A program made the translations under genes and the position numbers. This document shows positions 1-28,744 of a stretch of DNA of 64,000 nt, in pieces (within the stretch, counting starts at the first letter, position 1; each line of letters opens with the position of its first letter). Source of the stretch: a virus; IMG/VR virus record IMGVR_UViG_3300030430_004105, positions 19,219-83,218 of that record. The stretch is one strand, 5' to 3'. Below the pieces are notes generated by a model. That model saw only the letters and a program-made list of their open reading frames with translations, was not told the origin of the DNA and searched no databases.

Positions 1-3000
1 CCATCTGCTAGATCAGATTCCATTTTCTCGTCATAATTTCTAGCGCCTTTCTGCTTGACTTTGAATATCATCCACTTGACGTCTTTAAGAGATTCAATTC
101 CGTCTCCGTTTTCATCAAACAGCCCGCCAAGAAGTTCATCAACATTGACATCGTGAGAGATGGTTTCTTGTTTGAATTCAACCTTCTTTAGGCTTTCCGT
201 TCTTACGCCCTGCCAGATGCCGTTGAGATCTTCTCTATCTAGGCTCTTTTCAAATTCAAAGATATACATCGGCAAAGGTTCAATGTCATTCTCAATGAAA
301 TCTAAGTGAGGAGGTAAGTTATATTTTTGCATTTTGTCAATTTGATCCTTGACAGATTGCCCAATTGAACTTTCGAATCCTGTGCGACTGGCTGGAGTTC
401 TTGCAAGTCTATCTTTGGATACCAGATTATTCTGGAATAGATACTTATCTACTTCGAACTTATCTAGAGTCAAAAATTGTCTTTCGTTGTCTTCGATTGC
501 AATGTAAGGAATTGCAATAACCGCTTCACGTATTATTTTAGTCTGAGCGGTGACACCCATTTTGACTTTCTCTTGACTAAACCCTACCAAATCTGCTAAA
601 GATTTAGTTGAGATTGTAGATCCTTCACTGTGCATAAATTTACCCCATCTAACAGTAGATGCGTTTCTAGCAAAGTTCTTGTCGTTTTGAGGAGCCATTT
701 GAACTTTATTTTCAAAAGCCAAGCCTGTTCCGCCACCAGCGTTGTATCTTATGCTACCCCTGATAAATGTCGGCTCTGGATAATCATACGATGAGGTGGT
801 AGCAGCGGATGGACTTGAGGCAACTGCTGGATTATCTGGTATAAGTTTAAATCTCCTAGTGACTGATCTGCTTTTGAGTCCCTTAAATTTCTTATTATTT
901 TTCTTCTTTTTTCCTTTTAAGCCAAAGAAATCTCTTCTTTCTTTATCGGACATATCAATTTTGGCAAAAGACTTGATACTTGGGTTCAGTTCTACCAATT
1001 TATCTTCTAACTCTACAGGTACAATCTGTTTTTTGCCGTCAACATCTACGCAAGATATATCTGCTCTATCTGACAAATCTGCAGACTGATCTGTGTACTT
1101 CACTCCAATTGAGAATTCTTTCAAGAAATCTTCGAATAATCCTCTGGAGAAACTACCATAATCAAAACTTAAACTAGCATAATCTTTCGCTTCAATCAAA
1201 ATAGGAGTATATGTGCCTGCCCTGTCATAATTGTAATATGCAGTTGCCCAGTTGCCTTGATAAGATCCACTTGATTTTTGAGGGTAGGATGCCGATGATG
1301 CTGTAGTGTTAATAAACACAGTGTACAAACCACCGGTGAAGGCAGAGTTAGTAGTCAACATGGTTTTATCAGAAGATTGAATAATCGTAAACAGCCCACT
1401 TGAACTTTGTGCATTCTGGATTGATCCATATACTGCTGTCAATTCTGCAGAATTTAATTCAGCATCTATAATAATCCCATCATCTTTGTTTATCAACTGT
1501 ATAGAACTACCTAGAACAGACAGATCTTCTTTGCCAACCAACTTTCTTCTTATTTCTTGCTTCTTAAAATATGGAAGGATTGTCTTGCCCGGATTCTTGT
1601 TGTAACCCAAGTTAAGCCCTGCACCATCACAATCGTTGATATCTGGCTTGACTACAGTGTATTTTGGATTTGCAATTGTCAGTTCTGTTCCTAAAATAGT
1701 GTAGTCATCTGGAACATCCATCATTTGCATGAAAATACCTCTTTCGTCAGATTCAGGGAATTCACCATACTGGTGCCACATTCCGATAGGATTCAGGATA
1801 CCGCTTAGTTCATGAACTGCAGACAAAGAAGAGTGTGCTGCACTCAAAACATCAGGCTCGCTTCTGGTGCCACTCAGGCTCATGCTTGCTGTGTGGATGT
1901 CAGAAGTGGAAACTTCGCTTTCAAAAGCAGCGTTGTGTGGACGATTCAAGTATTTAGAGAAGTCAAGTATCGGAGTCTCAAACTTGGATTCGATTACCCA
2001 AGCCTTTCCAGCGTTTTGCTGATTAGTGTCAATTTCAGATATAACTCCTTGACTGCTGTACTTAGCAGGATATACACTGACTTGCTTGAACAGGTTGAAA
2101 GAAGCGTCAATTTGCATTGCATTTTCATTGATGGCGAATCCTTGCGGCCCGAACGTCCCTCTGTCTCCATAAGATCCTGATTCATGGTTTAACTCATATC
2201 TCAAGAAATCCACAGTAGTTTTTTCAAGTATCTCAGAAAGCGTGTGCTTGCCTGCTCTTTCCGGCGTAAATGTGTAGATAGCCCAAGCCTCTCCATCATA
2301 GTACGGAGGCGTAAATGGAGCATTGTAGCCGTTTGTAGAGTCATACATCATATATGTTGTATTGTTATGCTTGCCAGTCAAAGGTGTGATGTCATCCGTG
2401 TCCAAACCTTTAAATTCAACAGCGACACCACCAGCACAAGGAGGGCCGAAAGCATTTGGCTGTGAGTACATTGTGATTGTCTCAACTTCTGCATAAGGAT
2501 TCATTTGAGGACGTGGATAGCCAACTGATTCTAGATCGTACTCTAAGTCAGTGCCAGTCAAGTTCTCATATTCTCTCAAGAAATAGTTTGTTCCACTCGG
2601 TGGGCGATAATAATATTTATCAACCTTGTTGCTGTCAATATACTTAGTACCCGGAACAGTACCGTCAGTCTTTACGACTTCAGTGACACCTTTGAACTCA
2701 ACCCAAGGATGTTGCTTCTTGGACTTATATACTTTGAATATCGAACGATAAACTGGAAGTATTCCTGCATGATTGGCGATAACAACACCAAAATCAGGAT
2801 GATTGTCGGGCTTAGAAATGATTCTAGACGTCTTGCCATCTTCTAAGAAAAATCCAATTGCTTCTGCAAAGAAGTTATTAGACATTAGTTTGTAATTTTT
2901 ATCTCCAATACCATTCCACTCGGTTCTCAAGTTGACTGAGGAACTAATATGCGGATTAGCATCTACAATTCTCTTTGAAGCCAAGTATGCCTCTGGGTTG

Positions 3001-6000
3001 ATAAGAGTTTCGAAAGGCAATCTGTCATCAAAGTATTCATTGTTGATCATATAGTTTTTACCACCATAGGGATCCGAGAGAGACGCTGTGGCAAGTTTTG
3101 ATGTGATGATAGGGTAATCTACTGCCATACCAGACTTAATGGTGTTATACAGCAATCCCGGCGACATAATGGCATCAAAAATTGGACGTGACTGTGCAAA
3201 TGTATTGTTGTCAGGAAATAGCAAATTGGTGTTGCTCTCGTCTGCTTCTTCAGCCAAGAAGTTTCTTCCATAAGAATCGGCGAACGCTTCACACATTTGA
3301 ACAGTTCTAGACTGAGGATAGAATCCATCATAAGGTAAGAAACTCATAATCGCATCACATGTCAAAGTCAGTTTAGCGACACTAGCATCTCCTCTGTTTT
3401 CTTCAATAAAGTTTTCCATATTTTTTATATCTGAAGATATGGAGTATTCTTTTAGAAATTCATTTCCAGATATGTTTATCGTATTGCGATTAACTGTTAC
3501 GCCGTTATCTGCACTGGTACCAGTTATCTCAAGCCAATAATTCTTCTTGAAATATTCAACCTCAGAAGACTCACCAGCGACTATATCCTTTACGTGAGAA
3601 CTAATTCTGAACTCAGGCACCAAAGAGAAGTGCTTATTGTGTCCTCTGATATTCTCGTACCAAGTATTATAATCATCATCCATAGGAGTCAGCCCAGACA
3701 AGTCTGGAGTTGTCCATCTAGAAGTATTATCATATAGTCCATCTGTGGCATATCCCAAAGAACGTGTTAGGTTGAAATGGTTTGATCTTAACTTGTATTC
3801 TGCGCTAATTAGCCCAAGACTTGACTTGGCAGTCGGAGATCTCAAAGATCCCGGCGAGGTTAGTACGTGAGGATAGTTGTACCTAGGTTGTGGTATTATT
3901 TCTCCAAACCTTAACAAAACTGGATCGTATCCTCCGCTCATGCCGGTGGCTGCAAAAGTATTTCCTGTTTCTGTTATTGGAATATTTCCTGCAGTTCCCA
4001 GCAAAGATGAAGTCATATGTAATCTAGCAGCGTCGCCAACAGGTTCAATAGTCACTGAGGCGATAGAAGCAGACGCTTTGATTGATGCTGAGAGATTGTT
4101 GAAATAATCGGCGTTCGATATGGTATTCAGATTGTTCACATTTGTTCCACAAAGAACCTGCCCTGCTCCTGCAGATGATCCAGTTACAAGAGTGAGAGTC
4201 ACGCCATTAATCGTAATCGTGTCGCCTGCTTTTGCACCAGATTCATCTGATCCACCATCTGTGTTGGCAGCGATCGTGAACCCAACGCCGTCGGCGCCAT
4301 TATATACAGATGTTATATCACTGTTAAACAATGCACCAGTTGCAGAAGATGTAATACTAAATGTTGCGATATTATTTGAAGGCGAAATTGATATTGTGTC
4401 AAATACGGTATTATCTTTGATCGACTGCGATAAGTCATTCCAAAACAAAGTGCTTTTTTCTTCGTCAGTTCCAGAGTAGCCAGAGGCATCAATGAATTTG
4501 TCCACTACGGTTGAGGACTCATCTCCATTCAGATCTACTTTAAAAATCAAATTTGTCTCAGTGCCGTCTCCATCTGTGTCAGTAAAAAATCTGATAAAAT
4601 CCAAATCTCCAATACCAATTGGTGTAGTTCCGCCTGCAGCACCTTCCAAATTAAAGAAAGTTCTATTATTGGAGGATCTAACAAATGCAACGTTTTGAGC
4701 GGTACCTGTCACAGATGAGGTTAATTTCATGAATCTTCTGCCAGTAGGCATACCAGAGGTAGAGGAACCGCCTGATCCAAACGAAGATGAATTTAATATT
4801 TTAAAAGTTAATTCATTTGAAAATGCATTGGCTGATACTCCGGGACTGGCGTTGATCTCATGAACACCGGGTGAAGAATCGTGAACAATTGTGAAAGTTG
4901 TTCCACCAATCGTTATTGTGTCTCCTGCCTTGGCACCAGATTCGTCAGTTCCCCCAGATCCAGCGTCTATAATGTTGTATGAAAGCCCAGAATTTGCCCC
5001 ATCTTCTGTAACGTTCGGATTGGAGTTAGTTGTACCAGTAACAGAACTTGTAATAGAAAACAACATCATTCCACCCACAACAGAACCGGTATTCGCTGTG
5101 TGTGTTGTATTACTATTTATTTTAGATCTTAAATTTTCCCAAACAGCAGAACTGGAGTTAACAGAAGAAGATAAAACGTTAAATTTGACGCCCGAGTTGT
5201 CGCTTGTTGTTGGAGTGAAAGTTTTCGTACCGCCTGTTCCGGGATTAAATATAATAATATCATCACCCGGACGAATACCAGATTCATCTGTTCCGTTTGA
5301 AAAGTTTGTTCCTGCTGTAAAAGTTGGAGACGAATAAGCAGCGCCGGTTCGATTACCAGTGGCACCAGATTCTGATGAGGTTACTGTAAAGGTTGCAGTT
5401 CCGTTGAGATTATCAACATATGAGGCAGCGTAGTACCAAGGCGCACTTTCTAGTTGCGCTTTTAAAGCATTCCAAAAATTAGTATGAGTGGTGCCGTAAA
5501 CAGTTGAGTCAAGATATTTACGAGTAGTAGTGTTCTCACTAGTTCGATCACTATAAGCAATGTATAAATATCGAAACTGGCTGCCAGCGATAGGGAATTT
5601 GATACGATCATTCTCTTGTGCACCAACATCATCTTGCCCATTTGAGCCAGAATTTGTCACATTAAATGAAGAGTGTGAAGATGTCACCACACCATTGTCA
5701 GCCTCTCCTCTGTTCTTGGAAACAATATTGAATGTTGCCTTATTGCCCACAGAAGATCTATTTAAAACTTCCCATCCCGGAACAAATCCAGAATTTATCA
5801 CTGTTTCCATTCTGCTCCAAACATCACTATCAGCGACGCCTACGACATTTACACTAGTGTTTGCAGAGTTGTTGCTTGCCAAATTGACAGTTGTTCCATC
5901 AATATCTATGGAGTGTCCGGTAGTAGAGCCAGATGGAGCACCTCCTCCAGTTGCTGTATTGATAGTAACTTGAGTTGAGGCTTCATACAAAAAGTATGCG

Positions 6001-9000
6001 TTGCCTCCACCAGCGTTGACGGAATCAACACGTATTTCATTTGTGTTTTGCAAAGTAGCAACAACATTGACAAGACTGGAATTGTTGATTGCGGAAACTA
6101 TTTTGTTGTACAGATTGGCTGTGTTTGTGTAGTCTGTTATTTCAATATTCACTGGGTTCAAGGTATGTCCTGCACCTGCAGTGTCCGTACCATTACCAAA
6201 ATCATTAATATTAATATAAAGATAATTACCATCATTAATGACGGCTCCAGTTGTATAATCATTACCTTTTCTTATTTGTATAGATGCAGCATATGGAGCA
6301 ACTCCAAGCCCAGAAGCCGCATTTCCACCAGTAAAGTTTGCACTAGTGCCAAAATCGTTAAATGTATTGGCAAACATCGATCCTGTATCAAGTGTTACAG
6401 CATCATTATCCGTCTCCTGAACGTTTCTTGTGACAACATAAGTCGCTTGATTACTAAGAGTGGTATAATTGGCGCTGGCAATTTCTGAGTCTGATTCGAG
6501 AGAGTATTCAAGGTGATTGAAGTAATGTTCAGTGCTTGCAGTGTAGTGAACTAGCGAACTTAAACCAGTTGTATAAGGAACTGGCCTACCTTCGTGAACA
6601 ACCCCAAATGTCAAGTTAACATTACTATTGTGACTAGGAGTAACAAAAGTCAAGTTTTCATCTTTTATAGTATATGCCTGTGAATCTACGCCAGTTACAG
6701 GCGTAGTAATACCTGATAAAGTTTTTTCTGCTCCAAGCACTGTTGAAGGTGTGGCATTAAAATTTGGCATGTCGCCAGTGGATGGATTATCTTGTCCTCC
6801 AGAAAATACCCACCAAGACAAACAATTTGAAAAATATTTAGGATGTGTTTGGAGATTTCTTGCATAACCCTTATTGTATATTTCTTCGATGTCTGTAAAG
6901 CCCAAAAGTGTGTCCCAAATCGATAAATGCGCTAAGCAGCCTTGTAGTTCAAAATTTGAACTATTAACAAATGGACTATCAGCGACAAAAATAGAGTTCA
7001 CCTCTCTCAAGGCTCCAGTATTAGATTTCGATGTAGTGTCGTAACTTTGAAGAGCACTGTTAATTCTCAATTCTGGATCATTTTGTATACTATCGACATC
7101 AAAAGTAATTGAAAAGAACTGAAATCTAGTTGTTTTCATTATACCTTCTTTCTTCCATTCATTATAGTAGCCACTAGAATTGTACATGCGAATGTACAAA
7201 TCATCATATTGATAGTATACCACTATTGTTTGATCTGAAGGGGTAGTATCTTTGCTGTCCTCAGCAAAACTAAGAATATATTGATTTGTGCTACTAGCGA
7301 TATTGTCAGACTTTAACCAAAAGCAAACTGTGAAATCTCCGGAGATAGTATATGAATCATTGTGGACATCCATTCTTTGAGCCAAACCGGTGGATGTCCA
7401 TCGCCATGATCTAGATCTTTGCTGAGCAATCAAAAAATCTCGTGGCGTGTAAACGTTCGCAGTACCATCACCAGCGAAAGTATATACATTACCTTCATCT
7501 AGAGGGCTTGAGTGCTTTATCTTGTGAGTTCCTCCTTTAATATTTACATTAGAGTTGGAAACGATTTCGCCGCTTATTGTGTTATGCTGAGCGCCGAAGT
7601 ATGTGGTTGAACTAAATGGCTCATAAGTAGTTGTAGTTTCACCGACAGTTACGTCTTTAGTGATGTCATATGCTGTTGGCAAATCATAGCCTACATCGTC
7701 TGCTAGAATCCTAACTGTACTGGAATTTCCGAAAACTTCTGCTGTATATGGCTGTGAATTTGCGGTAAAACTAGCGTTTAATTTTTCTACCCATGCTAGC
7801 CCGAACTCTTGATCCGATTTTAAATTTTTGTTTGAGTATGACGCTTCAGATCTTAACAACTCTACGGCGGTGGCGGTGGACGGAGTAATTGACAAGTGAT
7901 TTGTTCCGCCTCCGATATCTGTGATGTCTCCAGATGATATATCGTCAGAAACATAATTTCCCGGACTCCAATAAGTAACTAAGTTTGTACTAGGAGCCAA
8001 GTCATTTAAACTTGTCCATTCTCCACTATTATAATAGTCTGTTTCACTTGGGGCACTGGTGCTATCATATATGCCTATTTCTCCGATTGATAGATCAAAA
8101 TTTGTGCTGTTGTCTCCGACGAAATAATTTCCAGCAGGAGCACTTGGCGCATACGTGTTGATAACAACGCCGTTATAGGTTGTTGTCTTGGTGGTGTATT
8201 CTGTGCCATCACTGTATGCACTCCATTCTTCAGTAGCAGGATTTGTATCAGAAATTGATAACTTAATGGCATGCCAAGCGTTGTTTCCGTTCGTACTGAA
8301 TGCGAAAAAATTGGTAAACCGTGTCTCAATGTAATTACTATTAGAGTTTTGATAGTATCGTCTGCATATTAAGTGATTATTGGCGCCAGACTTTTGGTAA
8401 AGTATTTCAATCGCATGAGTACCTGAACCAGTGCGATAAATCTTTAAAATATTATATGTACCGTCAGCAGATGGGTTGATTCCAGTTTTATTCTTCATCG
8501 TAAACAAAATGGTAGTACCCTGATCGTTTGTGAATCCGCTAAAACCGCCTCCAGAAAGCATTGAGTTTGATGTAATCTTTATAAAACTAACTGGATTATA
8601 CACTGGGATATGAATATTACTAGCGTAGTTGTCTGTATGATCATTATTATCAGTTACAATGTGATATGTTTGTGTCTTGAAAGTTAATCCGGTTTCATGA
8701 TAGTTAGAAGGAGTTGAAGTAATAGTTGAGATACTTTTCGGAGAAAATATGAATGCAAATCTATCTCCATATCTTGGTATAGCCAATACTTTTAAATTTG
8801 CAGTAGCGGCAGAACCTGCCGTGTATCCGCCACCAGAAAAAGTGAAAATTTGCTGTGTTGTAGAGCCAGCGAAACTTGCCCCACTCATCTCAAAAGAAGC
8901 GGTAGAAAATTGTCCAACAGTTGTCGCTCCTGTGACATTAAATTGAAGGGACGCACTAGCAGCAGGGACATGCGCTCCAGAGACATAGAATTTTGAAATA

Positions 9001-12000
9001 TGACGTGTTCCCAGAACAGTTGCAGAAGAAGTGAACTCAAATGATCCAGTTGCTTTAACGCCCGTAGGAGTCATGCCGTGGACTGTGAAAGAGCCAGAAG
9101 AATGCTTTCCAAAAACTGTTGCTTTTGTGGTTATAATAGATCCAGTTGCTGTAGATCCAGTAACTAATACTGTCTGTAATCCGTTATGAAAATGATGATC
9201 TTGATTCTGCAGAACACCGGGTGCTCCGGCAGAGTTTGATGCAGCCACTTTAGGACTAGAACTGGTAAAGTTAATTCTAGAATCCATGTTCCATATTGAC
9301 TGCGAAGGGATGATGTTTGTCAATTGCCCTGAATCAATGAAGGTTTTTGTTTGGCTGTTTATCGCTTCTTTTGAGAATAATGATGCAGTAACGTTTTGTT
9401 GCCTTCTTCCTACTTCGTCCAGCCCTAGATAAGAGTTTTCTCCAGTGTCTGTGTTGTAAAGAACGTTCTCGCCATCTGTCCAAAACTTAGATACAAAGTA
9501 GTGTCTATGTCTTACATTATATTTTGTGTGCTTCAAGAAATCAGGGAATAGATTTTGTCTAACTCTAATTGCTTTCAGCGAGAATGCCTCATGATCTTCA
9601 TTCTTGTAGTATCCCAGAACGTTATCATAGATCGTCTCATTGACACTTGGATTAACTCCTTCTTCGTCAAACTTGGTGTTATCAAAATGATACTTCATGT
9701 TCACGTAAGGATGCACAAAGCGAAAGATCTCGTCTTTGAATTTCATAGTTGTGTATATGGGAATGTTTTCTGTGATTCTAGATTCTTCAATTGTTTCCGC
9801 AGTACCGTCTGTCTCTAGGCTATATCCATAAGATTTTTTGTTGACTACGTTCTTGTTTGTGTCGTTGTTTCTGACTTGTTCCCAAGAAGGGTAGCCATAT
9901 ACAGTGGTACCTGTCATTCTTTGGTTAGTGACACTTTGGCTCACCACAGCATAGTTGATGTTTTCGTGTGGATATATAGAAGATGTCCCACTTGGCTCTG
10001 AGAAATCTGATAAGATGTGCCCAGCAAGTGAAGATGTAGCCAATGAAGCAGTGTGTGATGCTTTAACCCACTTGTATTGGAAGTCAGACTGTGGAATCTG
10101 ATGCTGTATCCAGTAGTTGTCAAAGTCTTTCTCGCCTTCTGAAGCGTCCCATTTTGGGTTTCTATTGACTTTATGATATGCAGGATTGGTACCGCCCAAT
10201 ACAGAATCAATTCCAAACTGTGCTGCATGACGTGTCAAGTGCACAACAAGTCCAAAGCGATTACCGTGAATATCTACGAGCCTAATCGTGCCAGATTCTC
10301 CAGAGCCTGAGCCTCTAACTTGCAAGTTCCGGAAAGGGAGAGAGTTGTATGCAGACTTTTCTTTGCCGAACATGTCTAAGAATACTTCTGACATTGTTTC
10401 GAAACCTCCGGGAGCAGAGAAGCGATTTACTATAACAGATTTTCCTGTACCAGCAACTGAATTCTCTGTTGTAGTTTTGACACCGCCCAGATACAAACTC
10501 GAAGTGTTGAAGTTAGATGCTAAATTACCGTTCCCACCTACACCCCTAGAGATCAAACTTGCTTCTAAGTTAGTCTCTGGTAAGGCTGAATTGATGGGAT
10601 TGTGCAAATTACTGTCACCTATGTCTCTAAATCTTGTTTTGTTTACAGATCTCCCGAACGTATGAACAAACTGATATGTCTTCTGGTAGTTACCAACTGC
10701 TCTTTCAGATGTTTTGATGTTCTTGATATTAACAGGGCGTTTTGCTCTTTCGTCTCGATAGTATCTAGCCTTTGCTTGATTAACATAAAAGTGAGGCGGT
10801 GTAGAGAAACTAGAATTAGGAACAGGATAATCTGCCCCAACAATACCAATAGAACCAGATTCGTTAAGGATATTGTTGATCAATATTTTATAACCTTCGG
10901 CACGGTTTGTGGGCGAGTCAGATCCTCTGTTTATGTTACTGTGTCTAGATTGATGTCCTCCAACCCATCTCTCTGTAAATGGAGACTGCATTGGAATTTC
11001 GTTCGTGTTATCCGTTGTATCGGAATGAACATTAACAATGTCAATATTTTGATTACCTCCGGGGATTCCGTTAACTTCTGCTGAGTATCCAGTGGTGACA
11101 GACGAAGACATGATGTTGAATGGCATAACCATGCCACCCTTGAAAAGCCCGTCATGTCCACCAGACATGGCGTGATGAAACGCTGTGAAACCATCAATGG
11201 CACTGAATGCTCTCTTGATCTTCTCTGTTACTGGACGTTCATCTGTGCAATCTTTCAAAGACTGGAACATGTCGCTGTTCGCAACAACGTATCTCAAAGG
11301 GAAAGCACCAAATTGTCCATATAGTAGTGGATACTCAGCGGCTTCTTTTGTGGCACTCCAGATGTAATCTCTTTTCTTGTTATCTTCGTAGTTAATTCCG
11401 CCATGTATGACTCTATCTCTTTTCACTGCAAAGTGTTGCGGTGTTGTAAAAGAACGATTCAAGACTGAATTTCTGGCTTGAAATACTTTAACACGAGTAT
11501 TGTTAGAGCCAGATGCCGATCCAGATAAAGGAGGACGATCTCTCTCTGCTCTCTCAAGCCACCAAAAACAGTTTTTGTTCTCAGGAGTTCCGCCAACTGG
11601 AGCATGTCCTTGCTTCCATGGATATAGGTGACGGTTAATCGTGTTCATGCCACCTTCTGGTGTTGGAGCCTTGAATTCAATCGTGGGGAACTTATTGGTG
11701 TATTTGTCTCTAGAGAAGACGTAGTTCTCGATAACATTATTAACACCATCAGAATGGGCTAAGGATGCAGGTACAAGCGCTACTAGCATCTCGCCTAGTG
11801 CATCATCCAACCATTTGTAGTAATCGATGTATTTGTCCAAATCGGGCTCGTTAGACACCCTTTCGAAGAAGAGTTGACGCAACTTGGACAGAGCCTTATA
11901 CTCCATTCTGTATTTGTCAACAGGGCGTCCAATAAGATTATTGAAGTCTGTCACTGATGACATAAAGTTTATCATCTCTTGTGACACTGTTTGCGCCATG

Positions 12001-15000
12001 GACTTCTCAAAAGCGATGTAATATTCTTGTGGAAGTGTCTCTTTTGTGAAGACGATATCATCTTGAGTTCTGATCTCGATCATGTCATCGCCTTGGAGGA
12101 TCTCAGGATAAGTTGATCTTGCCGCTGTGATGTAATCTACATCTATAGCCTTCTCGTCACTGACAGGCATGAAATCTAACTTACCAAAATAAAATTTGTT
12201 CTTTACTGCTTCAAAGTTGGCGTTGTATTTGACTGGTGCCGAGCCACTTGAAGCGTCTAGCACTATCGCCTGTCCGCTTGAATCTGTCTTCGAGAGAGTT
12301 GAAAAATTCCAGTTAAGCACCAAAGTATCGATTTCTGGTACTTTTGGAGAGTTTGCATCAGTCTGTGCCAGATATGCTGATCTAAATGGAGAGTTGGCGC
12401 CATAATTTCTGCTATCGGAACTGTGTCTTTTGAGAGTTTCGTTCGATAACTCACTGTACCATAACCTAGTGAAACCTAATTTGATATCACTTCTGTCTAC
12501 CAGAGATCCAGTGAAGTTTGTTCTTTTCGCTCCAGCGTAGATTCTTTTTGAATTTACTAGGAATGAGTGAGCACTGGCAGATGCCACAGAAGAAGTAAGC
12601 ACAAACGAGTTCAACTCAGAACTATCAACTGTGTTATATCCTATGAAGTGCAATTTATAATTACCATCATCTGAGGACGATACTAAATTTGCAGTAGGGT
12701 GTTTGTCGTTTACTATCTTGAAAGCGAGAAGCCATTCGTTATTGTCATACATCCCATCATATAGAGAAGAAGAAAGGTGAACACCCAGTGCAGATGAACT
12801 CAAGTGAAATTTAACTCTTTTTGATTCAGTCTCATCTCTCTCCACGTACATTTGCATGTCGCACTTATCAGGATTTGCTATGGCATAATTTGTATTTGAT
12901 GTAGCCTGATGCATACCAGCAATCACAGACTTTGTAAAAGGGGTGGCGAATCCAAACGGTTCATCAAAAGGCAACTTATTAGGCAATATTATCTGTGTTT
13001 CGAAAGTCAAAGGTATGAACTTTTCAAAATTAGACGTAGAGCCGGTTATGAAACTAATGTTAGATCCAGAAGGTATCTGGTATATAGAGGCATTAAATCG
13101 ATCTGGGTTGTTGAAATCAATAAACTTCTCTTTAACAGATCTAATAGAGTACCTGTCTTTTAATTCAAATTCTACATTGTTGCCGTAAAAATTAATCTTA
13201 ACAACTTCTTCGTCAATACCAAATGCATGCAGTATGTTACGGAAACCTTTGTTAGTTCCCTTTTCTTTATATGTGTTTATTAGTCCAGAATACACATTTT
13301 GGTAAATCTGGTTCTTCACGTCGTGAAGTTTCATCTCGTAATTTTCATCTTCGCTTCTTTTGGCAAGTTTTTCTAGCACGGTAGCATCAGAAAACAATTC
13401 AGGGGCAACAAAACTAGCATTTGTTAAAAGCCTGTCAGCGAATGGAAGAGGCTTGACTGATCCAGAAGTGCTAGTATTTCCATACTCATCGCCTGTTTTT
13501 GTTTGAAAATGTGCGTATATATCTTTCAGGCGATTAACTTCTCTTATATGCAGGTGCATATTGTCAAAATAAGATGCAATAATTTGCGTTAGGTTCCTAA
13601 GATTTCCTTCTTTGACATCATCGTCTTCTAGAATCCATTGTGGCATTGTGTGAAAAATCGATGAGTTGTTGTACATATCGTAGTGTGATCCAGACGCCTC
13701 TAGTTCGGATAGAGTAGAAATGTAATCTGGATGGTTAGAACGGATGGTTGGATCTTTAAATTCTTTATCTATGACTTTTGCCAATACCATGGCAGAATCA
13801 GTGCTTCTCGCACCAGACACATAACCCGTCCAAGCGCCATTTGAAACTCTACCAGAATAGTCTAGAACATTTGAGTCGAAACTAGCAGTCTGAGTGATTC
13901 CTTCATTGAATTTGTAATATACGCCAAGTTTAGTATTAGCCTCATCAGTGTTTGTTCCACCACCGATTGTATTCCAATAATATCTACCAATTTGTTTTGC
14001 AGTTCTCTCGGTTTTCCAATATCTGAACTCGTCTAGCGAGCCTGAGAACTTACCTGCACCTGTCTGAATGGTAGGAGATCCAGAAGGAGCGGTTTGTAGC
14101 GCCCCAATAAATGAAATTATCGATCCTGTTATATTATTAAGAGCGGCAGATGAAATTGTCTGTTGATGGTTTAGTGCTCCGTTAATATACAGATTGGTTG
14201 ACAGGTTAGAGCCTGTATTCTTCAAAGACAAGGCAATGTGAGTCCAATCTGTAATTGATGATGTTGTAACATTTTGCCCACAAGACTGATTCTGTATGCC
14301 GTTTGTTCCGCTCAAAGCAGTAAATAAGAACGGAGAACCGGCAGCAGCACCAGTAAGTTCTAATCGAAACCTACCATACTGTGCTGAACTGGACGGCTGT
14401 CCGTTCCACAAGTCAAATAAAACCTCTTTTTCTGTTTTTGATGTGTCAAAAGCAGGCTTTTTTACCCACATTTCAACCGTAACACCCTCGTTTAAATTAA
14501 ATTTGAGGTTTGATTCTCTTGATTTTACTGTGTCAAGTTTGTTGGCGTCACCAAATTGATTCTCAAGCCCTGATAAATCAGATTTGTTAGGGCCGCCAAA
14601 TGTCTTAATAAAAGTATTTGTTGTTGATTTCCCATATCCATCGATTATTCCACCACTAAGAGAACCCCATGTAGGATACCCTAAGTTGATGTGTCCGTTA
14701 AATCTAGGATATTTGTGATCGAATATGTATTTGTCAATGAATGTAGATTCATTTAGCCACTGTGCTTTTTCTGCCTCTGAGCCGTCATACGGGTACAGAG
14801 TCCTAATTCTGGCAAAAGCATCAGTATAGTATTTTTCTGCCGAGCCGTATATCGCAAACTGGCTTGGATCGCTAAAATCTACGTTTGGATAAAACCTTTC
14901 TTCATCTATACTAGTTTGTTCGATAAAACTTTCAGACTCAACGTCTGCTGCCATATCTTCTAGACTTGATGATTTTATCACTTTTGTTGAATTATATAAA

Positions 15001-15014
15001 TCTTTTAATTTCAT
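1..15014 (-). CDS. Giant (>5,004 aa, 3'-partial) baseplate wedge / receptor-binding virion protein with several LamG domains and a repeated stalk
   Basis: ATG at 15014 overlaps the TGA of the upstream gene (ATGA) and reads MKLKDLYNSTKVIKSSSLEDMAAD. The same frame still reads protein-like at the left edge (LKDVKWMIFKVKQKGARNYDEKMESDLAD). Spot translations at 2.5, 3.9-6.6 and 8.7-9.2 kb are stop-free. The ORF track has no complete ORF in this frame, which is consistent with one ORF lacking a stop in the window. It follows the gp25- and gp6-like genes. Confidence 0.9.
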   Translation of the reverse strand, partial: MKLKDLYNSTKVIKSSSLEDMAADVESESFIEQTSIDEERFYPNVDFSDPSQFAIYGSAEKYYTDAFARIRTLYPYDGSEAEKAQWLNESTFIDKYIFDHKYPRFNGHINLGYPTWGSLSGGIIDGYGKSTTNTFIKTFGGPNKSDLSGLENQFGDANKLDTVKSRESNLKFNLNEGVTVEMWVKKPAFDTSKTEKEVLFDLWNGQPSSSAQYGRFRLELTGAAAGSPFLFTALSGTNGIQNQSCGQNVTTSSITDWTHIALSLKNTGSNLSTNLYINGALNHQQTISSAALNNITGSIISFIGALQTAPSGSPTIQTGAGKFSGSLDEFRYWKTERTAKQIGRYYWNTIGGGTNTDEANTKLGVYYKFNEGITQTASFDSNVLDYSGRVSNGAWTGYVSGARSTDSAMVLAKVIDKEFKDPTIRSNHPDYISTLSELEASGSHYDMYNNSSIFHTMPQWILEDDDVKEGNLRNLTQIIASYFDNMHLHIREVNRLKDIYAHFQTKTGDEYGNTSTSGSVKPLPFADRLLTNASFVAPELFSDATVLEKLAKRSEDENYEMKLHDVKNQIYQNVYSGLINTYKEKGTNKGFRNILHAFGIDEEVVKINFYGNNVEFELKDRYSIRSVKEKFIDFNNPDRFNASIYQIPSGSNISFITGSTSNFEKFIPLTFETQIILPNKLPFDEPFGFATPFTKSVIAGMHQATSNTNYAIANPDKCDMQMYVERDETESKRVKFHLSSSALGVHLSSSLYDGMYDNNEWLLAFKIVNDKHPTANLVSSSDDGNYKLHFIGYNTVDSSELNSFVLTSSVASASAHSFLVNSKRIYAGAKRTNFTGSLVDRSDIKLGFTRLWYSELSNETLKRHSSDSRNYGANSPFRSAYLAQTDANSPKVPEIDTLVLNWNFSTLSKTDSSGQAIVLDASSGSAPVKYNANFEAVKNKFYFGKLDFMPVSDEKAIDVDYITAARSTYPEILQGDDMIEIRTQDDIVFTKETLPQEYYIAFEKSMAQTVSQEMINFMSSVTDFNNLIGRPVDKYRMEYKALSKLRQLFFERVSNEPDLDKYIDYYKWLDDALGEMLVALVPASLAHSDGVNNVIENYVFSRDKYTNKFPTIEFKAPTPEGGMNTINRHLYPWKQGHAPVGGTPENKNCFWWLERAERDRPPLSGSASGSNNTRVKVFQARNSVLNRSFTTPQHFAVKRDRVIHGGINYEDNKKRDYIWSATKEAAEYPLLYGQFGAFPLRYVVANSDMFQSLKDCTDERPVTEKIKRAFSAIDGFTAFHHAMSGGHDGLFKGGMVMPFNIMSSSVTTGYSAEVNGIPGGNQNIDIVNVHSDTTDNTNEIPMQSPFTERWVGGHQSRHSNINRGSDSPTNRAEGYKILINNILNESGSIGIVGADYPVPNSSFSTPPHFYVNQAKARYYRDERAKRPVNIKNIKTSERAVGNYQKTYQFVHTFGRSVNKTRFRDIGDSNLHNPINSALPETNLEASLISRGVGGNGNLASNFNTSSLYLGGVKTTTENSVAGTGKSVIVNRFSAPGGFETMSEVFLDMFGKEKSAYNSLPFRNLQVRGSGSGESGTIRLVDIHGNRFGLVVHLTRHAAQFGIDSVLGGTNPAYHKVNRNPKWDASEGEKDFDNYWIQHQIPQSDFQYKWVKASHTASLATSSLAGHILSDFSEPSGTSSIYPHENINYAVVSQSVTNQRMTGTTVYGYPSWEQVRNNDTNKNVVNKKSYGYSLETDGTAETIEESRITENIPIYTTMKFKDEIFRFVHPYVNMKYHFDNTKFDEEGVNPSVNETIYDNVLGYYKNEDHEAFSLKAIRVRQNLFPDFLKHTKYNVRHRHYFVSKFWTDGENVLYNTDTGENSYLGLDEVGRRQQNVTASLFSKEAINSQTKTFIDSGQLTNIIPSQSIWNMDSRINFTSSSPKVAASNSAGAPGVLQNQDHHFHNGLQTVLVTGSTATGSIITTKATVFGKHSSGSFTVHGMTPTGVKATGSFEFTSSATVLGTRHISKFYVSGAHVPAASASLQFNVTGATTVGQFSTASFEMSGASFAGSTTQQIFTFSGGGYTAGSAATANLKVLAIPRYGDRFAFIFSPKSISTITSTPSNYHETGLTFKTQTYHIVTDNNDHTDNYASNIHIPVYNPVSFIKITSNSMLSGGGFSGFTNDQGTTILFTMKNKTGINPSADGTYNILKIYRTGSGTHAIEILYQKSGANNHLICRRYYQNSNSNYIETRFTNFFAFSTNGNNAWHAIKLSISDTNPATEEWSAYSDGTEYTTKTTTYNGVVINTYAPSAPAGNYFVGDNSTNFDLSIGEIGIYDSTSAPSETDYYNSGEWTSLNDLAPSTNLVTYWSPGNYVSDDISSGDITDIGGGTNHLSITPSTATAVELLRSEASYSNKNLKSDQEFGLAWVEKLNASFTANSQPYTAEVFGNSSTVRILADDVGYDLPTAYDITKDVTVGETTTTYEPFSSTTYFGAQHNTISGEIVSNSNVNIKGGTHKIKHSSPLDEGNVYTFAGDGTANVYTPRDFLIAQQRSRSWRWTSTGLAQRMDVHNDSYTISGDFTVCFWLKSDNIASSTNQYILSFAEDSKDTTPSDQTIVVYYQYDDLYIRMYNSSGYYNEWKKEGIMKTTRFQFFSITFDVDSIQNDPELRINSALQSYDTTSKSNTGALREVNSIFVADSPFVNSSNFELQGCLAHLSIWDTLLGFTDIEEIYNKGYARNLQTHPKYFSNCLSWWVFSGGQDNPSTGDMPNFNATPSTVLGAEKTLSGITTPVTGVDSQAYTIKDENLTFVTPSHNSNVNLTFGVVHEGRPVPYTTGLSSLVHYTASTEHYFNHLEYSLESDSEIASANYTTLSNQATYVVTRNVQETDNDAVTLDTGSMFANTFNDFGTSANFTGGNAASGLGVAPYAASIQIRKGNDYTTGAVINDGNYLYININDFGNGTDTAGAGHTLNPVNIEITDYTNTANLYNKIVSAINNSSLVNVVATLQNTNEIRVDSVNAGGGNAYFLYEASTQVTINTATGGGAPSGSTTGHSIDIDGTTVNLASNNSANTSVNVVGVADSDVWSRMETVINSGFVPGWEVLNRSSVGNKATFNIVSKNRGEADNGVVTSSHSSFNVTNSGSNGQDDVGAQENDRIKFPIAGSQFRYLYIAYSDRTSENTTTRKYLDSTVYGTTHTNFWNALKAQLESAPWYYAASYVDNLNGTATFTVTSSESGATGNRTGAAYSSPTFTAGTNFSNGTDESGIRPGDDIIIFNPGTGGTKTFTPTTSDNSGVKFNVLSSSVNSSSAVWENLRSKINSNTTHTANTGSVVGGMMLFSITSSVTGTTNSNPNVTEDGANSGLSYNIIDAGSGGTDESGAKAGDTITIGGTTFTIVHDSSPGVHEINASPGVSANAFSNELTFKILNSSSFGSGGSSTSGMPTGRRFMKLTSSVTGTAQNVAFVRSSNNRTFFNLEGAAGGTTPIGIGDLDFIRFFTDTDGDGTETNLIFKVDLNGDESSTVVDKFIDASGYSGTDEEKSTLFWNDLSQSIKDNTVFDTISISPSNNIATFSITSSATGALFNSDITSVYNGADGVGFTIAANTDGGSDESGAKAGDTITINGVTLTLVTGSSAGAGQVLCGTNVNNLNTISNADYFNNLSASIKASASIASVTIEPVGDAARLHMTSSLLGTAGNIPITETGNTFAATGMSGGYDPVLLRFGEIIPQPRYNYPHVLTSPGSLRSPTAKSSLGLISAEYKLRSNHFNLTRSLGYATDGLYDNTSRWTTPDLSGLTPMDDDYNTWYENIRGHNKHFSLVPEFRISSHVKDIVAGESSEVEYFKKNYWLEITGTSADNGVTVNRNTINISGNEFLKEYSISSDIKNMENFIEENRGDASVAKLTLTCDAIMSFLPYDGFYPQSRTVQMCEAFADSYGRNFLAEEADESNTNLLFPDNNTFAQSRPIFDAIMSPGLLYNTIKSGMAVDYPIITSKLATASLSDPYGGKNYMINNEYFDDRLPFETLINPEAYLASKRIVDANPHISSSVNLRTEWNGIGDKNYKLMSNNFFAEAIGFFLEDGKTSRIISKPDNHPDFGVVIANHAGILPVYRSIFKVYKSKKQHPWVEFKGVTEVVKTDGTVPGTKYIDSNKVDKYYYRPPSGTNYFLREYENLTGTDLEYDLESVGYPRPQMNPYAEVETITMYSQPNAFGPPCAGGVAVEFKGLDTDDITPLTGKHNNTTYMMYDSTNGYNAPFTPPYYDGEAWAIYTFTPERAGKHTLSEILEKTTVDFLRYELNHESGSYGDRGTFGPQGFAINENAMQIDASFNLFKQVSVYPAKYSSQGVISEIDTNQQNAGKAWVIESKFETPILDFSKYLNRPHNAAFESEVSTSDIHTASMSLSGTRSEPDVLSAAHSSLSAVHELSGILNPIGMWHQYGEFPESDERGIFMQMMDVPDDYTILGTELTIANPKYTVVKPDINDCDGAGLNLGYNKNPGKTILPYFKKQEIRRKLVGKEDLSVLGSSIQLINKDDGIIIDAELNSAELTAVYGSIQNAQSSSGLFTIIQSSDKTMLTTNSAFTGGLYTVFINTTASSASYPQKSSGSYQGNWATAYYNYDRAGTYTPILIEAKDYASLSFDYGSFSRGLFEDFLKEFSIGVKYTDQSADLSDRADISCVDVDGKKQIVPVELEDKLVELNPSIKSFAKIDMSDKERRDFFGLKGKKKKNNKKFKGLKSRSVTRRFKLIPDNPAVASSPSAATTSSYDYPEPTFIRGSIRYNAGGGTGLAFENKVQMAPQNDKNFARNASTVRWGKFMHSEGSTISTKSLADLVGFSQEKVKMGVTAQTKIIREAVIAIPYIAIEDNERQFLTLDKFEVDKYLFQNNLVSKDRLARTPASRTGFESSIGQSVKDQIDKMQKYNLPPHLDFIENDIEPLPMYIFEFEKSLDREDLNGIWQGVRTESLKKVEFKQETISHDVNVDELLGGLFDENGDGIESLKDVKWMIFKVKQKGARNYDEKMESDLAD
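3930..6530 (-). repeat. Eight tandem degenerate ~90-130 aa domains in the giant ORF (GG.D.SG...GD.I.I ... helix F/W-N-x-L ... TSS..G...N)
   Basis: Helices YFNHLEYSLES, NLYNKIVSAINN, DVWSRMETVINS, NFWNALKAQLES, AVWENLRSKINS, AFSNELTFKILN, LFWNDLSQSIKD, DYFNNLSASIKA. Junctions GGSDESGAKAGDTITING, GGTDESGAKAGDTITIGG, NGTDESGIRPGDDIII. Confidence 0.8.
6790..7400 (-). other. LamG/concanavalin-A-like domain within the giant ORF
   Basis: FTVCFWLKSD...YILSF...FQFFSITFD...LRIN...LQGCLAHLSIWDTLLGFTDIEEIYNKG. Confidence 0.7.
7950..8600 (-). other. LamG-like domain within the giant ORF
   Basis: TTILFTMK...WHAIKLSIS...AYSDG...LSIGEIGIYDS...YYNSG...NLVTYW. Confidence 0.6.
8763..9158 (-). repeat. Eight tandem 16-17 aa beta-strand repeats within the giant ORF
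   Basis: GSTATGSIITTKATVF / GKHSSGSFTVHGMTPT / GVKATGSFEFTSSATVL / GTRHISKFYVSGAHVP / AASASLQFNVTGATTV / GQFSTASFEMSGASFA / GSTTQQIFTFSGGGYTA / GSAATANLKVLAIPRYGD. Confidence 0.8.
13190..13340 (-). other. Baseplate wedge (T4 gp7 / P2 gpI-like) core motif within the giant ORF
   Basis: IYQNVYSGLINTYKEKGTNKGFRNILHAFGI resembles the Y..KGT...I..L signature of wedge subunits. Confidence 0.6.
13900..14500 (-). other. LamG domain within the giant ORF
   Basis: VTVEMWVKK...LFDLW...WTHIALSL...LYINGAL...FSGSLDEFRYWKTERT...LGVYYKFNEG. Confidence 0.8.
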
Positions 15015-28441: not shown

Positions 28442-28744
28442 TTATTTCTCCTTATCATCTTTTTGAATCATATCATAGATATCATCCTTGTCTTCTCCGG
28501 AGAAACTGAACACAGAATCTTTCTTCTCATCTTTTTGGATCAATCCAGCAAGTTTGACTAACTGTTCATTTGATCTTTGAAGTGTCTCTACGTATTTTGC
28601 TGCAGCCAATGACACTTCTTTATGATTGTGTTCGCTTTGCCCTGCAATTACAATAAGATCGCTCAACAACTCTTGGGTTATCTCACGATCTTTTCTTATG
28701 TTTTCAACTGCTTCTTCTATAAATTTATTAAGCCTCTTAGACAT
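28442..28744 (-). CDS. Conserved helical hypothetical protein
   Basis: 100 aa ORF with RBS, translationally coupled to the sigma-like gene. Confidence 0.75.
   Translation of the reverse strand: MSKRLNKFIEEAVENIRKDREITQELLSDLIVIAGQSEHNHKEVSLAAAKYVETLQRSNEQLVKLAGLIQKDEKKDSVFSFSGEDKDDIYDMIQKDDKEK

What the first reader, a model, noticed from the sequence alone, without database searches (positions are those of the whole stretch)
3930..9158. Eight-deep 'Russian-doll' telescopic stalk displaying two LamG domains at its tip
Seen: the protein first runs through exactly eight 16-17 aa strand repeats (9158-8763, consensus G..ATGSF.V.G). It then encodes two LamG domains (8600-6790) and returns through exactly eight ~100 aa domains (6530-3930). 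Seven of the return domains begin at a GG-xxx-G...(GD).I.I type junction and lack a first strand. The eighth strand continues directly into GDRFAFIF, and its helix resumes after the LamG pair. Known: the complete unit (ATGTIT...GDTITING...helix...TLT...G..GN...GG) resembles insertion domains of tail sheaths and flagellins. Inference: each domain is inserted in the strand1-strand2 loop of the previous one, so outgoing strand n completes return domain n. This would make a single-chain, hairpin-topology rigid fibre grafted in a baseplate wedge protein, an alternative to trimeric tail fibres whose length is tunable by nested duplication.
Basis: partly seen in the sequence, partly recalled or inferred. 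Interest (0 to 1): 0.85.

Follow-up and report, generated by a model that had tools for sequence, protein, structure and literature searches.

The report
Nested single-chain stalk in phage protein
A giant protein of an uncultured marine phage seems to build a stalk from a single chain that runs out as about nine short strands and comes back through about nine small domains, each strand completing one domain, with two lectin-type domains at the far end.

Summary
The window carries 5004 of the 5171 residues of one phage ORF. Residues 1953-2090 are a 16-residue strand repeat (z 5.1). Two homologous LamG-like inserts follow. Six clearly homologous ~105-aa alpha/beta domains (R3-R8) then lack the first strand that a complete unit has. 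I count nine levels, not eight: each LamG sits in its own unit (X, Y), and 'GDRFAFIF' reads as a ninth strand.

Nesting is supported by two lines of evidence. (1) Strands and return domains folded as two chains scored ipSAE 0.64 against 0.00 for the best control. Lowest-error contacts pair S6-R3, S5-R4, S4-R5 and S2-R7, antiparallel, with each strand lying between two strands of its domain. (2) In relatives with 1, 2, 3, 6, 8, 9 and 10 levels, strand and domain counts match in all 16 proteins I could resolve. These counts were made by eye.

The module sits at three different host sites. The unit fold resembles tail-sheath insertion and FliD D2-D3 domains (Z 8.1, marginal).

Not shown: the tip pairings, stalk shape and rigidity, oligomeric state, the baseplate-wedge identity of the host protein, and function. 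AlphaFold2 of the tip failed (pLDDT 39). I found no description in print. This is a new variant of nested domain insertion.

The parts
3..15014 (-). Giant ORF: 5004 of 5171 aa lie in the window. The C-terminal 167 aa lie before the window start.
   Evidence: five ~5000-aa homologues
8745..9158 (-). Outgoing strand array S1-S9 (aa 1953-2090), period about 16 aa, motif A-T-G-S-F-x-V-x-G. S9 = 'DRFAFIF' is my reading.
   Evidence: interface aa 1952-2065; S9 is inferred from the counts
8640..8744 (-). N-part of innermost unit X (strands 2-3; about aa 2091-2125). Boundaries are approximate.
   Evidence: inference from alignment with relatives; not modelled with confidence
7935..8597 (-). LamG-like insert 1 (about aa 2140-2360), inside unit X
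   Evidence: LG1-LG2 prob 97.9%; beta-rich, pLDDT 50-71 only
7587..7823 (-). C-part of unit X (helix from about aa 2402, then strands; aa 2398-2476)
   Evidence: pattern and position; no significant profile match
7509..7562 (-). N-part of unit Y (strands 2-3, 'NVNIKGGTHKIKH', about aa 2485-2502)
   Evidence: aligned with 'GITI.GTT' of relatives; split HMM hits in P0003 and P0005
6789..7352 (-). LamG-like insert 2 (about aa 2555-2742), inside unit Y
   Evidence: vs N-terminal Laminin_G_3 domain: prob 80%, E 1.4e-5
6324..6551 (-). C-part of unit Y (helix plus strands, aa 2822-2897, ends FTGG)
   Evidence: hmmsearch i-E 5.4e-5, profile 37-103; hhalign vs R4 and R8 93-94%
5940..6323 (-). Return unit R2 (aa 2898-3025). 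Divergent; present only in the window's protein and P0003/L002.
   Evidence: contacts with the strand chain (chain 2 residues 62-135); weak HMM hit i-E 0.59
5637..5939 (-). Return unit R3 (aa 3026-3126); partner S6
   Evidence: pairs aa 3095/3097/3118 with aa 2039-2042
5292..5636 (-). Return unit R4 (aa 3127-3241); partner S5
   Evidence: pairs aa 3206-3211 with aa 2023-2027
4950..5291 (-). Return unit R5 (aa 3242-3355); partner S4
   Evidence: pairs aa 3317-3319 with aa 2009-2011
4629..4949 (-). Return unit R6 (aa 3356-3462); partner S3 (by order)
   Evidence: in the interface list
4251..4628 (-). Return unit R7 (aa 3463-3588); partner S2
   Evidence: pairs aa 3551 and 3580 with aa 1977
3930..4250 (-). 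Return unit R8 (aa 3589-3695, ends GMSGG); partner S1 (by order)
   Evidence: in the interface list
16450..18261 (-). Context: gp6-like baseplate wedge gene, two genes upstream of the giant ORF
   Evidence: phrog_219 E 2.2e-24; Pfam Gp6-like_1st E 0.0013, below its cut-off

Best explanation
The module (aa about 1950-3697) is a single-chain hairpin built by iterated nested domain insertion. The chain first lays down about nine short beta-strands, one every 16 residues. It then forms two innermost units (X, Y), each carrying a LamG-like lectin-type domain in its strand-3-to-helix loop. It returns through seven more ~105-aa alpha/beta bodies (R2-R8). Each body lacks its first strand and receives it from the outgoing arm, in reverse order: S9-X, S8-Y, S7-R2, S6-R3, S5-R4, S4-R5, S3-R6, S2-R7, S1-R8. 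In the model the donated strand lies between the 'ATF.LTSS' strand and the last strand of the body, in the middle of the sheet.

Because the entry and exit of the module coincide, it can sit in a surface loop of the host protein, and two chain segments cross every junction. Inferred but not shown: the units stack into a stalk that holds the two LamG domains away from the virion for glycan or host-surface binding, and length evolves by adding or removing a strand-plus-body level.
For: (1) Two-chain fold (ESMFold2). Chain 1 = aa 1940-2100 and chain 2 = aa 2898-3697, each with a 5-row alignment. Score (ipSAE) 0.64 (runs 0.64, 0.71, 0.64); best of 3 controls 0.00. That mark was reached by 58 of 80 solved complexes and 2 of 110 mismatched pairs; these counts hold only roughly because my own alignments were used. 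The runs agree in at least 87% of contacts, and the partner's pLDDT is at least 67. Lowest-error pairs: chain 2 residue 311 with chain 1 residue 87, 312 with 86, 313 with 85 (R4 with S5, antiparallel); 421 with 71 (R5 with S4); 198 with 102 and 221 with 102 (R3 with S6, on both sides of the strand); 654 and 683 with 38 (R7 with S2, on both sides). The interface covers chain 1 residues 13-126 = S1-S7 and all seven bodies. S8 and S9, whose proposed partners X and Y were left out, are not in it.

(2) The same run's controls. The strand chain alone with an unrelated partner has pLDDT 38 (67-72 with the true partner). The return domains have pLDDT 57-64 with unrelated partners (80-81 with the strands).

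(3) A contiguous complete unit exists in relative P0053. AlphaFold2 with a 46-row alignment gave mean pLDDT 81.8 and pTM 0.74, with a first strand at residues 15-21. In the alignment, 40 of 45 other rows start at residue 20 or 21 and 43 of 45 at residue 20 or later, so the return bodies lack that strand.

(4) Counts of outgoing strands to unit bodies, read by eye with hmmsearch envelopes: P0053 1:1; P0046 2:2; P0051, P0059, P0065 3:3; P0012 6:6; P0011, P0015, P0004, P0005, P0006, L003, L004 8:8; the window's protein and P0003 9:9; L010 10:10. That is equal in 16 of 16 resolved. P0028 is unresolved (11 strands to 11-13 bodies) and L008 is truncated.

(5) The module sits at three different places of the homologous host protein (blastp map). 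This needs its two ends to lie close together.

(6) Identity to the window's protein falls towards the tip. It is 63-64% just before the module, 36-50% in the strands, 37-43% in the return bodies and 20-28% in the tip with the LamGs. This fits an exposed, fast-evolving binding end.
Against: All structural evidence is prediction, and the pairing rests on one language-model-based job. AlphaFold2 on the closed tip construct (aa 2034-3128, 5-row alignment) failed: mean pLDDT 39.3, pTM 0.32. So S8-Y, S9-X and the LamG insertion geometry are untested.

Counts were made by eye. The 9:9 reading for the window's protein needs 'GDRFAFIF' to be a strand, which I decided after seeing the counts; otherwise it is 8:9. 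An objective PSSM scan locates the arrays but undercounts. It finds 4 of 9 strands in the window's protein, 3 of 6 in P0012 and 5 of 8 in P0011, plus a few hits elsewhere.

R2 and the X C-half have no significant similarity to the unit profile. Nothing shows that the units stack into an extended, stiff stalk rather than a compact bundle. Oligomeric state, virion location and ligand are unknown. The window's own two LamG-like inserts do not reach Pfam thresholds.
Confidence: 0.72

Rival explanations
1. The strand array is a separate structure. It could be a beta-solenoid or sandwich, or a trimeric fibrous shaft such as a triple beta-spiral, which also has a repeat of about 15 residues. Under this reading the C-terminal domains are a self-sufficient tandem array, and the predicted docking is beta-edge augmentation produced by the model.
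For: The repeat length of 16 is close to that of known fibrous shafts (recalled, not from a call). Tandem arrays of complete units do exist elsewhere: P0069 has 22 units of 91 aa. AlphaFold2 gave no support for any tip pairing.
Against: In one search the donated strands lie between two strands of each body, not at an edge. The order is strictly nested. The score is 0.64 against 0.00 for the best control (58 of 80 solved complexes and 2 of 110 mismatched pairs reach the mark; runs agree >= 87%; partner pLDDT >= 67). The strand chain alone scores pLDDT 38. Return bodies lack the strand present in complete units, whereas the tandem units of P0069 each carry their own. Strand and body counts match across 1 to 10 levels. 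A linear array could not be inserted at three different internal sites of the host protein. A homotrimer was not tested.
Confidence: 0.13
2. Strand complementation and nesting are real, but the units do not form an extended rigid stalk. They fold back or zig-zag into a compact or flexible decoration that carries lectin domains, as outer domains of flagellins or sheaths do.
For: No tool output gave coordinates, length or inter-unit angles. The nearest folds are surface decoration domains of sheaths, nozzle proteins and FliD. Relative P0028 carries many LamG inserts along the module, which suggests a brush of binding domains rather than a tip display.
Against: Nested topology with only about 8 linker residues per level on the way out, and a direct GG junction on the way back, leaves little slack for folding back. 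This is inference, not a tool result.
Confidence: 0.25

Closest known systems
Tail-sheath insertion (protruding) domains, e.g. cyanophage A-1(L) sheath residues 91-184 (8kee), phage Mu sheath (9khy), PhiTE sheath (9cb9)
   Same: They are the best structural matches to the complete unit: VIA Z 8.1, rmsd 2.8, 90 aligned for 8kee_A; Z 7.3 for 9khy_a; Z 6.2 for 9cb9_A. Foldseek gives E 5e-3 to 7e-3. They are also domains inserted in a loop of a virion protein. T4 gp18 is known for three nested domains (recalled, not from a call).
   Different: There is no sequence similarity. Z about 8 is at the level the tool calls possibly a common arrangement. Sheaths nest at most a few unlike domains, whereas here one homologous unit is nested about nine times and is not part of a sheath.
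Flagellin D0-D3 and FliD D2-D3 (hairpin-topology flagellar proteins)
   Same: FliD D2-D3 domains are among the fold matches (5h5w_B Z 5.9, 5h5v_A Z 5.6; Foldseek E 0.07). Flagellins are the textbook case of a chain that goes out and returns so that each domain is made from both arms (recalled).
   Different: Flagellins have 2-4 unlike levels, or a few more in species with extra outer domains. I saw only the search listing and abstract start of PMC8931119. Their base is a coiled coil that polymerises. Here there are 9 (1 to 11 in relatives) homologous levels, the outgoing arm gives one strand per level, and the module is itself an insert.
Tandem arrays of the same unit (P0069, 22 x 91 aa)
   Same: Same domain family by profile search; each unit has strand 1, 'GD.F.I.V.G', a helix and 'V.LTA'.
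   Different: The units are contiguous and complete, arranged as beads on a string, with the two ends far apart. The window's module instead separates strand 1 from the body at every level.
Trimeric phage tail fibres and the T4 gp7 wedge protein
   Same: The gene lies in a tail/baseplate neighbourhood, two genes after a gp6-like gene. LamG-type domains suit receptor binding.
   Different: There is no PHROG, Pfam or PDB sequence match to gp7 or to any fibre family. There is no match in 50,697 phage records. The proposed stalk needs no trimerisation.

Membership tests
Laminin G / ConA-like lectin (Pfam PF13385 Laminin_G_3) for the two inserts | Pfam profile match above the gathering score | tested here: not met
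   No hit for the window's own segment at E <= 0.1 or E <= 1. 1 of 5 orthologous segments hits at E 3.9e-16.
Laminin G / ConA-like lectin (Pfam PF13385 Laminin_G_3) for the two inserts | Profile-profile homology to a recognised LamG domain | tested here: met
   LG2 vs the Pfam-recognised domain at aa 170-342: hhalign prob 80%, E 1.4e-5. LG1 vs LG2: prob 97.9%, E 5.5e-13. LG1 vs the N-terminal domain directly is not significant (prob 2.9%).
Laminin G / ConA-like lectin (Pfam PF13385 Laminin_G_3) for the two inserts | Beta-sandwich jelly-roll fold | tested here: inconclusive
   The AlphaFold2 tip model is all-beta in both inserts, but pLDDT is only 50-76. It was not searched against the PDB.
Sheath-insertion / FliD D2-D3-like alpha/beta unit | Structural similarity of a confident model | tested here: inconclusive
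   Model pLDDT 81.8. Best VIA Z 8.1, rmsd 2.8, 90 aligned (8kee_A); FliD Z 5.6-5.9. Foldseek best E 5e-3, none <= 1e-3. BFVD gave 10 viral hits at E <= 1e-3, including 'baseplate protein J-like' entries.
Sheath-insertion / FliD D2-D3-like alpha/beta unit | Sequence-profile match to a described family | tested here: not met
   Pfam and PHROGs gave nothing for the module. The PDB profile search gave a best E of 0.045, to an unrelated protein.
Nested (hairpin) domain topology as in flagellin or T4 gp18 | Each domain is made of an N-arm and a C-arm segment, in reverse order | tested here: met
   One search gives explicit pairs for S6-R3, S5-R4, S4-R5 and S2-R7. The interface covers S1-S7 and R2-R8. 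Score 0.64 vs 0.00 for the best control (58 of 80 solved, 2 of 110 mismatched; runs agree >= 87%; partner pLDDT >= 67). This is a prediction only.
Nested (hairpin) domain topology as in flagellin or T4 gp18 | Equal numbers of N-arm and C-arm segments in relatives | tested here: met
   16 of 16 resolved proteins are equal, 1 is unresolved and 1 is truncated. Counts were made by eye. The window's own 9:9 depends on reading a ninth strand.
T4 gp7-like baseplate wedge protein (host protein) | Sequence or profile match to gp7 families | tested here: not met
   No PHROG at E <= 0.01. Pfam finds only Laminin_G_3. No PDB sequence hit at E <= 1.
T4 gp7-like baseplate wedge protein (host protein) | Gene position next to gp6 | tested here: inconclusive
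   A gp6-like gene lies two genes upstream, with a 479-aa gene of no family between.
Triple beta-spiral or other trimeric fibre shaft (strand array) | Short periodic repeat of about 15-16 residues | tested here: met
   Period 16, z 5.1.
Triple beta-spiral or other trimeric fibre shaft (strand array) | Homotrimeric assembly of the repeat region | not tested

The most novel reading that the evidence does not exclude
Iterated nested insertion with strand donation is a general way for phages to build fibres. A stalk is made from one polypeptide. Its length is set by the number of strand-plus-body levels (1 to 11 seen). Its two ends coincide, so it can be plugged into any surface loop; three host sites are seen. 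It also carries lectin domains as further inserts. This would be an alternative to trimeric fibres and to beads-on-a-string arrays, and it is found so far in a rare family of giant virion proteins of uncultured marine phages.
Probability: 0.55. Interest if true: 0.8.

Novelty: new variant of a known kind. Interest (0 to 1): 0.72.

Why it matters
Domain insertion is well known, and flagellins and tail sheaths nest two to four unlike domains. A chain that nests one homologous unit nine to eleven times, giving only one central strand per level on the way out, would be an unusual protein architecture. It would also be a new answer to how a virus makes a long receptor-reaching appendage without oligomerisation.

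It makes several questions testable. How do such deeply discontinuous domains fold, given that the first strand is made 1,650 residues before its partner? How is a level added when its two halves are far apart in the gene? Can the scaffold be used as a length-adjustable, loop-insertable spacer for displaying binding domains? For phage ecology, it points to the fast-evolving LamG tip as the likely host-recognition element of an uncultured marine phage lineage.

Tried and rejected
AlphaFold2 of the closed tip construct (aa 2034-3128, alignment A7 of 5 rows) gave mean pLDDT 39.3 and pTM 0.32. It was not used for any pairing and was not sent to fold search. An earlier alignment with full-length rows (A1) was discarded because the ends were misaligned. 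A5 was prepared but never folded.

My intermediate idea was that R2 is self-contained, with its own first strand, and that the window's protein is 8 strands to 8 incomplete bodies. I dropped it for three reasons. One search put S7 on R2. L010 has an R2-like unit yet counts 10:10. The stretch after S8 reads as a further strand in the window's protein and in P0003.

Sequence searches that found nothing for the module or the host protein:
- PHROGs.
- Pfam, except the N-terminal Laminin_G_3.
- PDB by sequence and by unit profile (best E 0.045).
- Phage records by tblastn.
- The Atlas gave only unnamed viral clusters with Laminin_G_3.
- Shorter homologues in the word-indexed collection: one 550-aa fragment.

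A PSSM scan for strands was too insensitive for counting.

Literature: seven full-text searches found no description of this architecture or protein family. These searches cover only the held open-access library, and supplements were not seen. From PMC10966104 I read five passages, and none bears on the sheath domain matched. Of PMC8931119 I saw only the listing and the start of the abstract. The statements on T4 gp18, flagellin topology and adenovirus-type shafts are recalled, not read here.

Full report
Setting. The window is bases 19219-83218 of a single 83,218-bp contig on which nearly all ORFs of 150 aa or more lie on the minus strand. The contig is a phage. It has a large terminase (phrog_2, E 1.3e-45), a primase, a RuvC-like resolvase, an SbcCD-like nuclease, a late sigma factor and PhoH. 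It also has a gp6-like baseplate wedge gene (phrog_219, E 2.2e-24; Pfam Gp6-like_1st E 0.0013, below its cut-off). The finding lies in one ORF at window 3-15014 on the minus strand. The window holds 5004 aa of it, and the full protein is 5171 aa. Four homologues of 4966-5191 aa exist in marine metagenomes. Further loci came from IMG/VR and JGI/Tara contigs. No cultured phage record matches.

The observation. Residues 1953-2084 are periodic. BLOSUM autocorrelation peaks at lag 16 (z 5.1) and lag 33 (z 4.4) against 500 shuffles, and the repeat aligns column by column in five orthologues. After the array come two inserts that are homologous to each other (hhalign prob 97.9%). The second is related to the Pfam-recognised Laminin_G_3 domain at aa 170-342 of the same protein (prob 80%, E 1.4e-5). 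Pfam does not reach the window's own two inserts, but hits one of five orthologous segments at E 3.9e-16.

After them, six domains R3-R8 (aa 3026-3695) are clearly homologous (hhalign 90-99.8%; hmmsearch i-E 1e-21 to 1e-26). The stretch before them (Yc, aa 2822-2897) matches the C-terminal two thirds of the unit profile (i-E 5.4e-5). R2 (aa 2898-3025) and the stretch between the LamGs (Xc) are not significantly similar. 'Eight homologous return domains' is really six clear ones, one partial one and one divergent one.

What a complete unit looks like. A profile of 30 return domains (A6) was searched against 1.84 billion representatives. It found only 79 proteins at E <= 1e-3, so the family is rare. 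It matches no Pfam family and no solved structure by sequence. Relative P0053 has a single, contiguous unit. With a 46-row alignment, AlphaFold2 gave mean pLDDT 81.8 and pTM 0.74. The order of elements is strand 15-21, strands 30-33 and 36-40, a short strand, helix 60-74, strands 77-85 and 88-95, and then two more strands. In that alignment 43 of 45 other rows begin at residue 20 or later. The return bodies therefore start just after the first strand and lack it. The first strand of P0053 carries the same kind of motif as the outgoing repeats.

By fold, the unit is closest to the inserted domain of simple tail sheaths: A-1(L) 8kee_A residues 91-184 (Z 8.1, rmsd 2.8, 90 aligned), Mu 9khy_a (Z 7.3) and PhiTE 9cb9_A (Z 6.2). 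It is also close to a domain of T7-like nozzle proteins (Z 6.2-7.1) and to FliD D2-D3 (Z 5.6-5.9). Foldseek agrees in rank order, but with E of only 5e-3 and worse. BFVD gives 10 viral hits at E <= 1e-3, some named baseplate J-like. The tool warns that Z under 8 may be a common arrangement.

The pairing test. The whole module is too long for one job, so I folded it as two chains. The strand arm was aa 1940-2100 (alignment A3) and the return arm was aa 2898-3697 (A4), without the tip (ESMFold2). The verdict was that the model supports binding but does not show it. The score was 0.64 and the best of 3 controls was 0.00. That mark was reached by 58 of 80 solved complexes and 2 of 110 mismatched pairs; these counts are rough because my own alignments were used. 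The runs agree in at least 87% of contacts, and the partner's pLDDT is at least 67.

The two chains are parts of one polypeptide, a kind of case the tool says tends to pass by likeness to solved structures. No solved relative is detectable by sequence, though the unit fold resembles solved sheath and FliD domains. The listed lowest-error pairs translate as follows:
- aa 3206-3211 (the 'ATFTVTSS' strand of R4) with aa 2023-2027 (S5), running antiparallel.
- aa 3317-3319 (R5) with aa 2009-2011 (S4).
- aa 3095 and 3097 (the 'ATFNIVSK' strand of R3) and aa 3118 (the last strand of R3) with aa 2039-2042 (S6).
- aa 3551 and aa 3580 (the matching two strands of R7) with aa 1977 (S2).

So in the model each outgoing strand lies between two strands of its body, and the order is nested. 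The interface covers aa 1952-2065 (S1-S7) and every one of R2-R8. S8 and the following stretch, whose proposed partners were not in the construct, stay out of it. With an unrelated partner the strand arm drops to pLDDT 38, and the return arm drops to 57-64 (from 80-81). This speaks against a self-folding strand array and against self-sufficient bodies.

The count test. I read the sequences printed, with hmmsearch envelopes. The counts of outgoing strands to unit bodies are:
- P0053: 1:1.
- P0046: 2:2, plus one separate complete unit elsewhere.
- P0051, P0059 and P0065: 3:3.
- P0012: 6:6.
- P0011 and P0015: 8:8.
- P0004, P0005 (=L009), P0006, L003 (=L006) and L004 (=L007): 8:8.
- L010: 10:10.
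- P0028: 11 strands against 11-13 helix-bearing bodies, unresolved.
- L008: cut off by the contig end.
- Fragments (P0008-P0010, P0014 and the short hits) were not counted.

The window's protein and P0003 (=L002, L005) have one more body (R2) than the 8:8 relatives, and nine bodies in all. They are equal only if the stretch right after S8 ('GDRFAFIF', and a similar alternating stretch in P0003) is a ninth strand, with strands 2-3 of unit X following it. I reached that reading after seeing the other counts, so it is post hoc. It does agree, where S7 and not S8 meets R2. With it, 16 of 16 resolved proteins have equal counts. A PSSM built from the window family's strands finds 1, 2 and 3 hits in P0053, P0046 and P0051. 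It finds only part of the strands in the longer arrays, plus a few stray hits. It confirms where the arrays are, but not their exact size.

The tip. In relatives the unit profile hits are split around the second LamG. In P0003 they are profile 3-35 before it and 32-104 after it. In P0005 there are four part-hits around both LamGs. Thus each LamG sits inside its own unit, between strand 3 and the helix. AlphaFold2 of the window's closed tip construct failed (pLDDT 39.3). S8-Y and S9-X therefore rest on elimination and on P0065, which has three strands for X, Y and one return body.

A portable insert. A blastp map of the window's protein against relatives shows three sites. In P0053 and P0011 the module lies between host segments that are contiguous in the window's protein (own aa about 1488 and 1525, before 'RFSAPGG'). 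In P0015 it lies after own-equivalent aa 1626, before 'SDFQY.W'. In the window's family it lies after 'QNQDHHFHNG' at aa 1945. An element that can be dropped into three different internal positions of a folded protein should have its two ends side by side, as a hairpin module does and a linear array does not.

How it likely works. Shown by prediction and comparison: nested strand donation at levels S1-S7 with R8-R2, variable numbers of levels, and LamG-type inserts at the inner end. Inferred:
- The units stack into a stalk.
- The double crossing of every junction stiffens it.
- The LamG domains bind a host surface glycan.
- The protein is a baseplate or fibre component, given its position two genes downstream of the gp6-like gene.

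Sequence identity to the window's protein falls from 63-64% before the module to 36-50% in the strands. It is 37-43% in the return bodies and 20-28% in the tip, as expected for an exposed recognition end. How a level is added when its two halves are far apart in the gene is unexplained. Insertion of a complete unit into the strand-1-to-strand-2 loop of the innermost unit is the simplest route (inference).

Comparison and novelty. The principle of nested domain insertion is known from flagellins and tail sheaths (recalled), and the unit fold is of that kind. The differences are the depth (9 here, 1-11 in relatives), the use of one homologous unit at every level, the minimal one-strand outgoing arm, and the fact that the whole thing is itself a loop insert carrying lectin domains. 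Seven full-text searches found no description. The library is open-access only. I rate it a new variant of a known kind. It is interesting, but rests so far on computation alone.

Noticed in passing
P0011, P0053, P0015 versus window aa 1488-1945 (window about 9180-10550): The nested module occupies three different insertion sites in homologous host proteins: before 'RFSAPGG', before 'SDFQY.W', and after 'QNQDHHFHNG'. The window's protein has it only at the third site.
   Followed up: partly
P0069 (3353 aa, representative library): An unrelated large protein carries two runs of 11 near-identical tandem copies of the complete 91-aa unit (22 in all), each with its own first strand. This is the beads-on-a-string counterpart of the nested form. 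Its Pfam hits are summed noise with 0 stretches.
   Followed up: partly
P0028 (5421 aa): This relative has about 11 outgoing strands. Most units carry their own LamG-like insert (seven or more), and two further units appear inside a LamG. It looks like a brush of lectin domains rather than a tip display, and I could not resolve its counts.
   Followed up: partly
P0053, P0011, P0051, P0059, P0065, P0028 C-termini versus window aa about 1657 onward: Many relatives end about 40 residues after the stretch that matches window aa 1657, with a shared end motif of the type 'FP[ST]AS.I.G'. That motif is absent from the window's protein. The window's extra C-terminal 3500 aa may therefore be a fusion or an extension.
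   Followed up: no
window 13989-14507 (aa 170-342 of the giant protein): A third LamG domain near the N-terminus is the only part of the 5171-aa protein that Pfam recognises (Laminin_G_3, E 1.8e-12). Atlas look-alikes are unnamed viral proteins that carry the same family.
   Followed up: no
window 18704-25153 (-): A second giant ORF of 2149 aa lies upstream of the gp6-like gene and has no Pfam or PHROG match.
   Followed up: no
P0012, P0051, P0046, P0059 versus window units X and Y: The LamG insert sits in different loops of the unit in different relatives. It follows the helix and the next strand in the 2-6-level proteins, and lies between strand 3 and the helix in the window's family.
   Followed up: no
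window 28744-29466 (-), 43460-44884 (-): Late sigma factor (phrog_234, E 1.4e-7) and PhoH-like protein (phrog_2765, E 4e-109). Together with the gp6-like wedge they point to a distant T4-like lineage.
   Followed up: no
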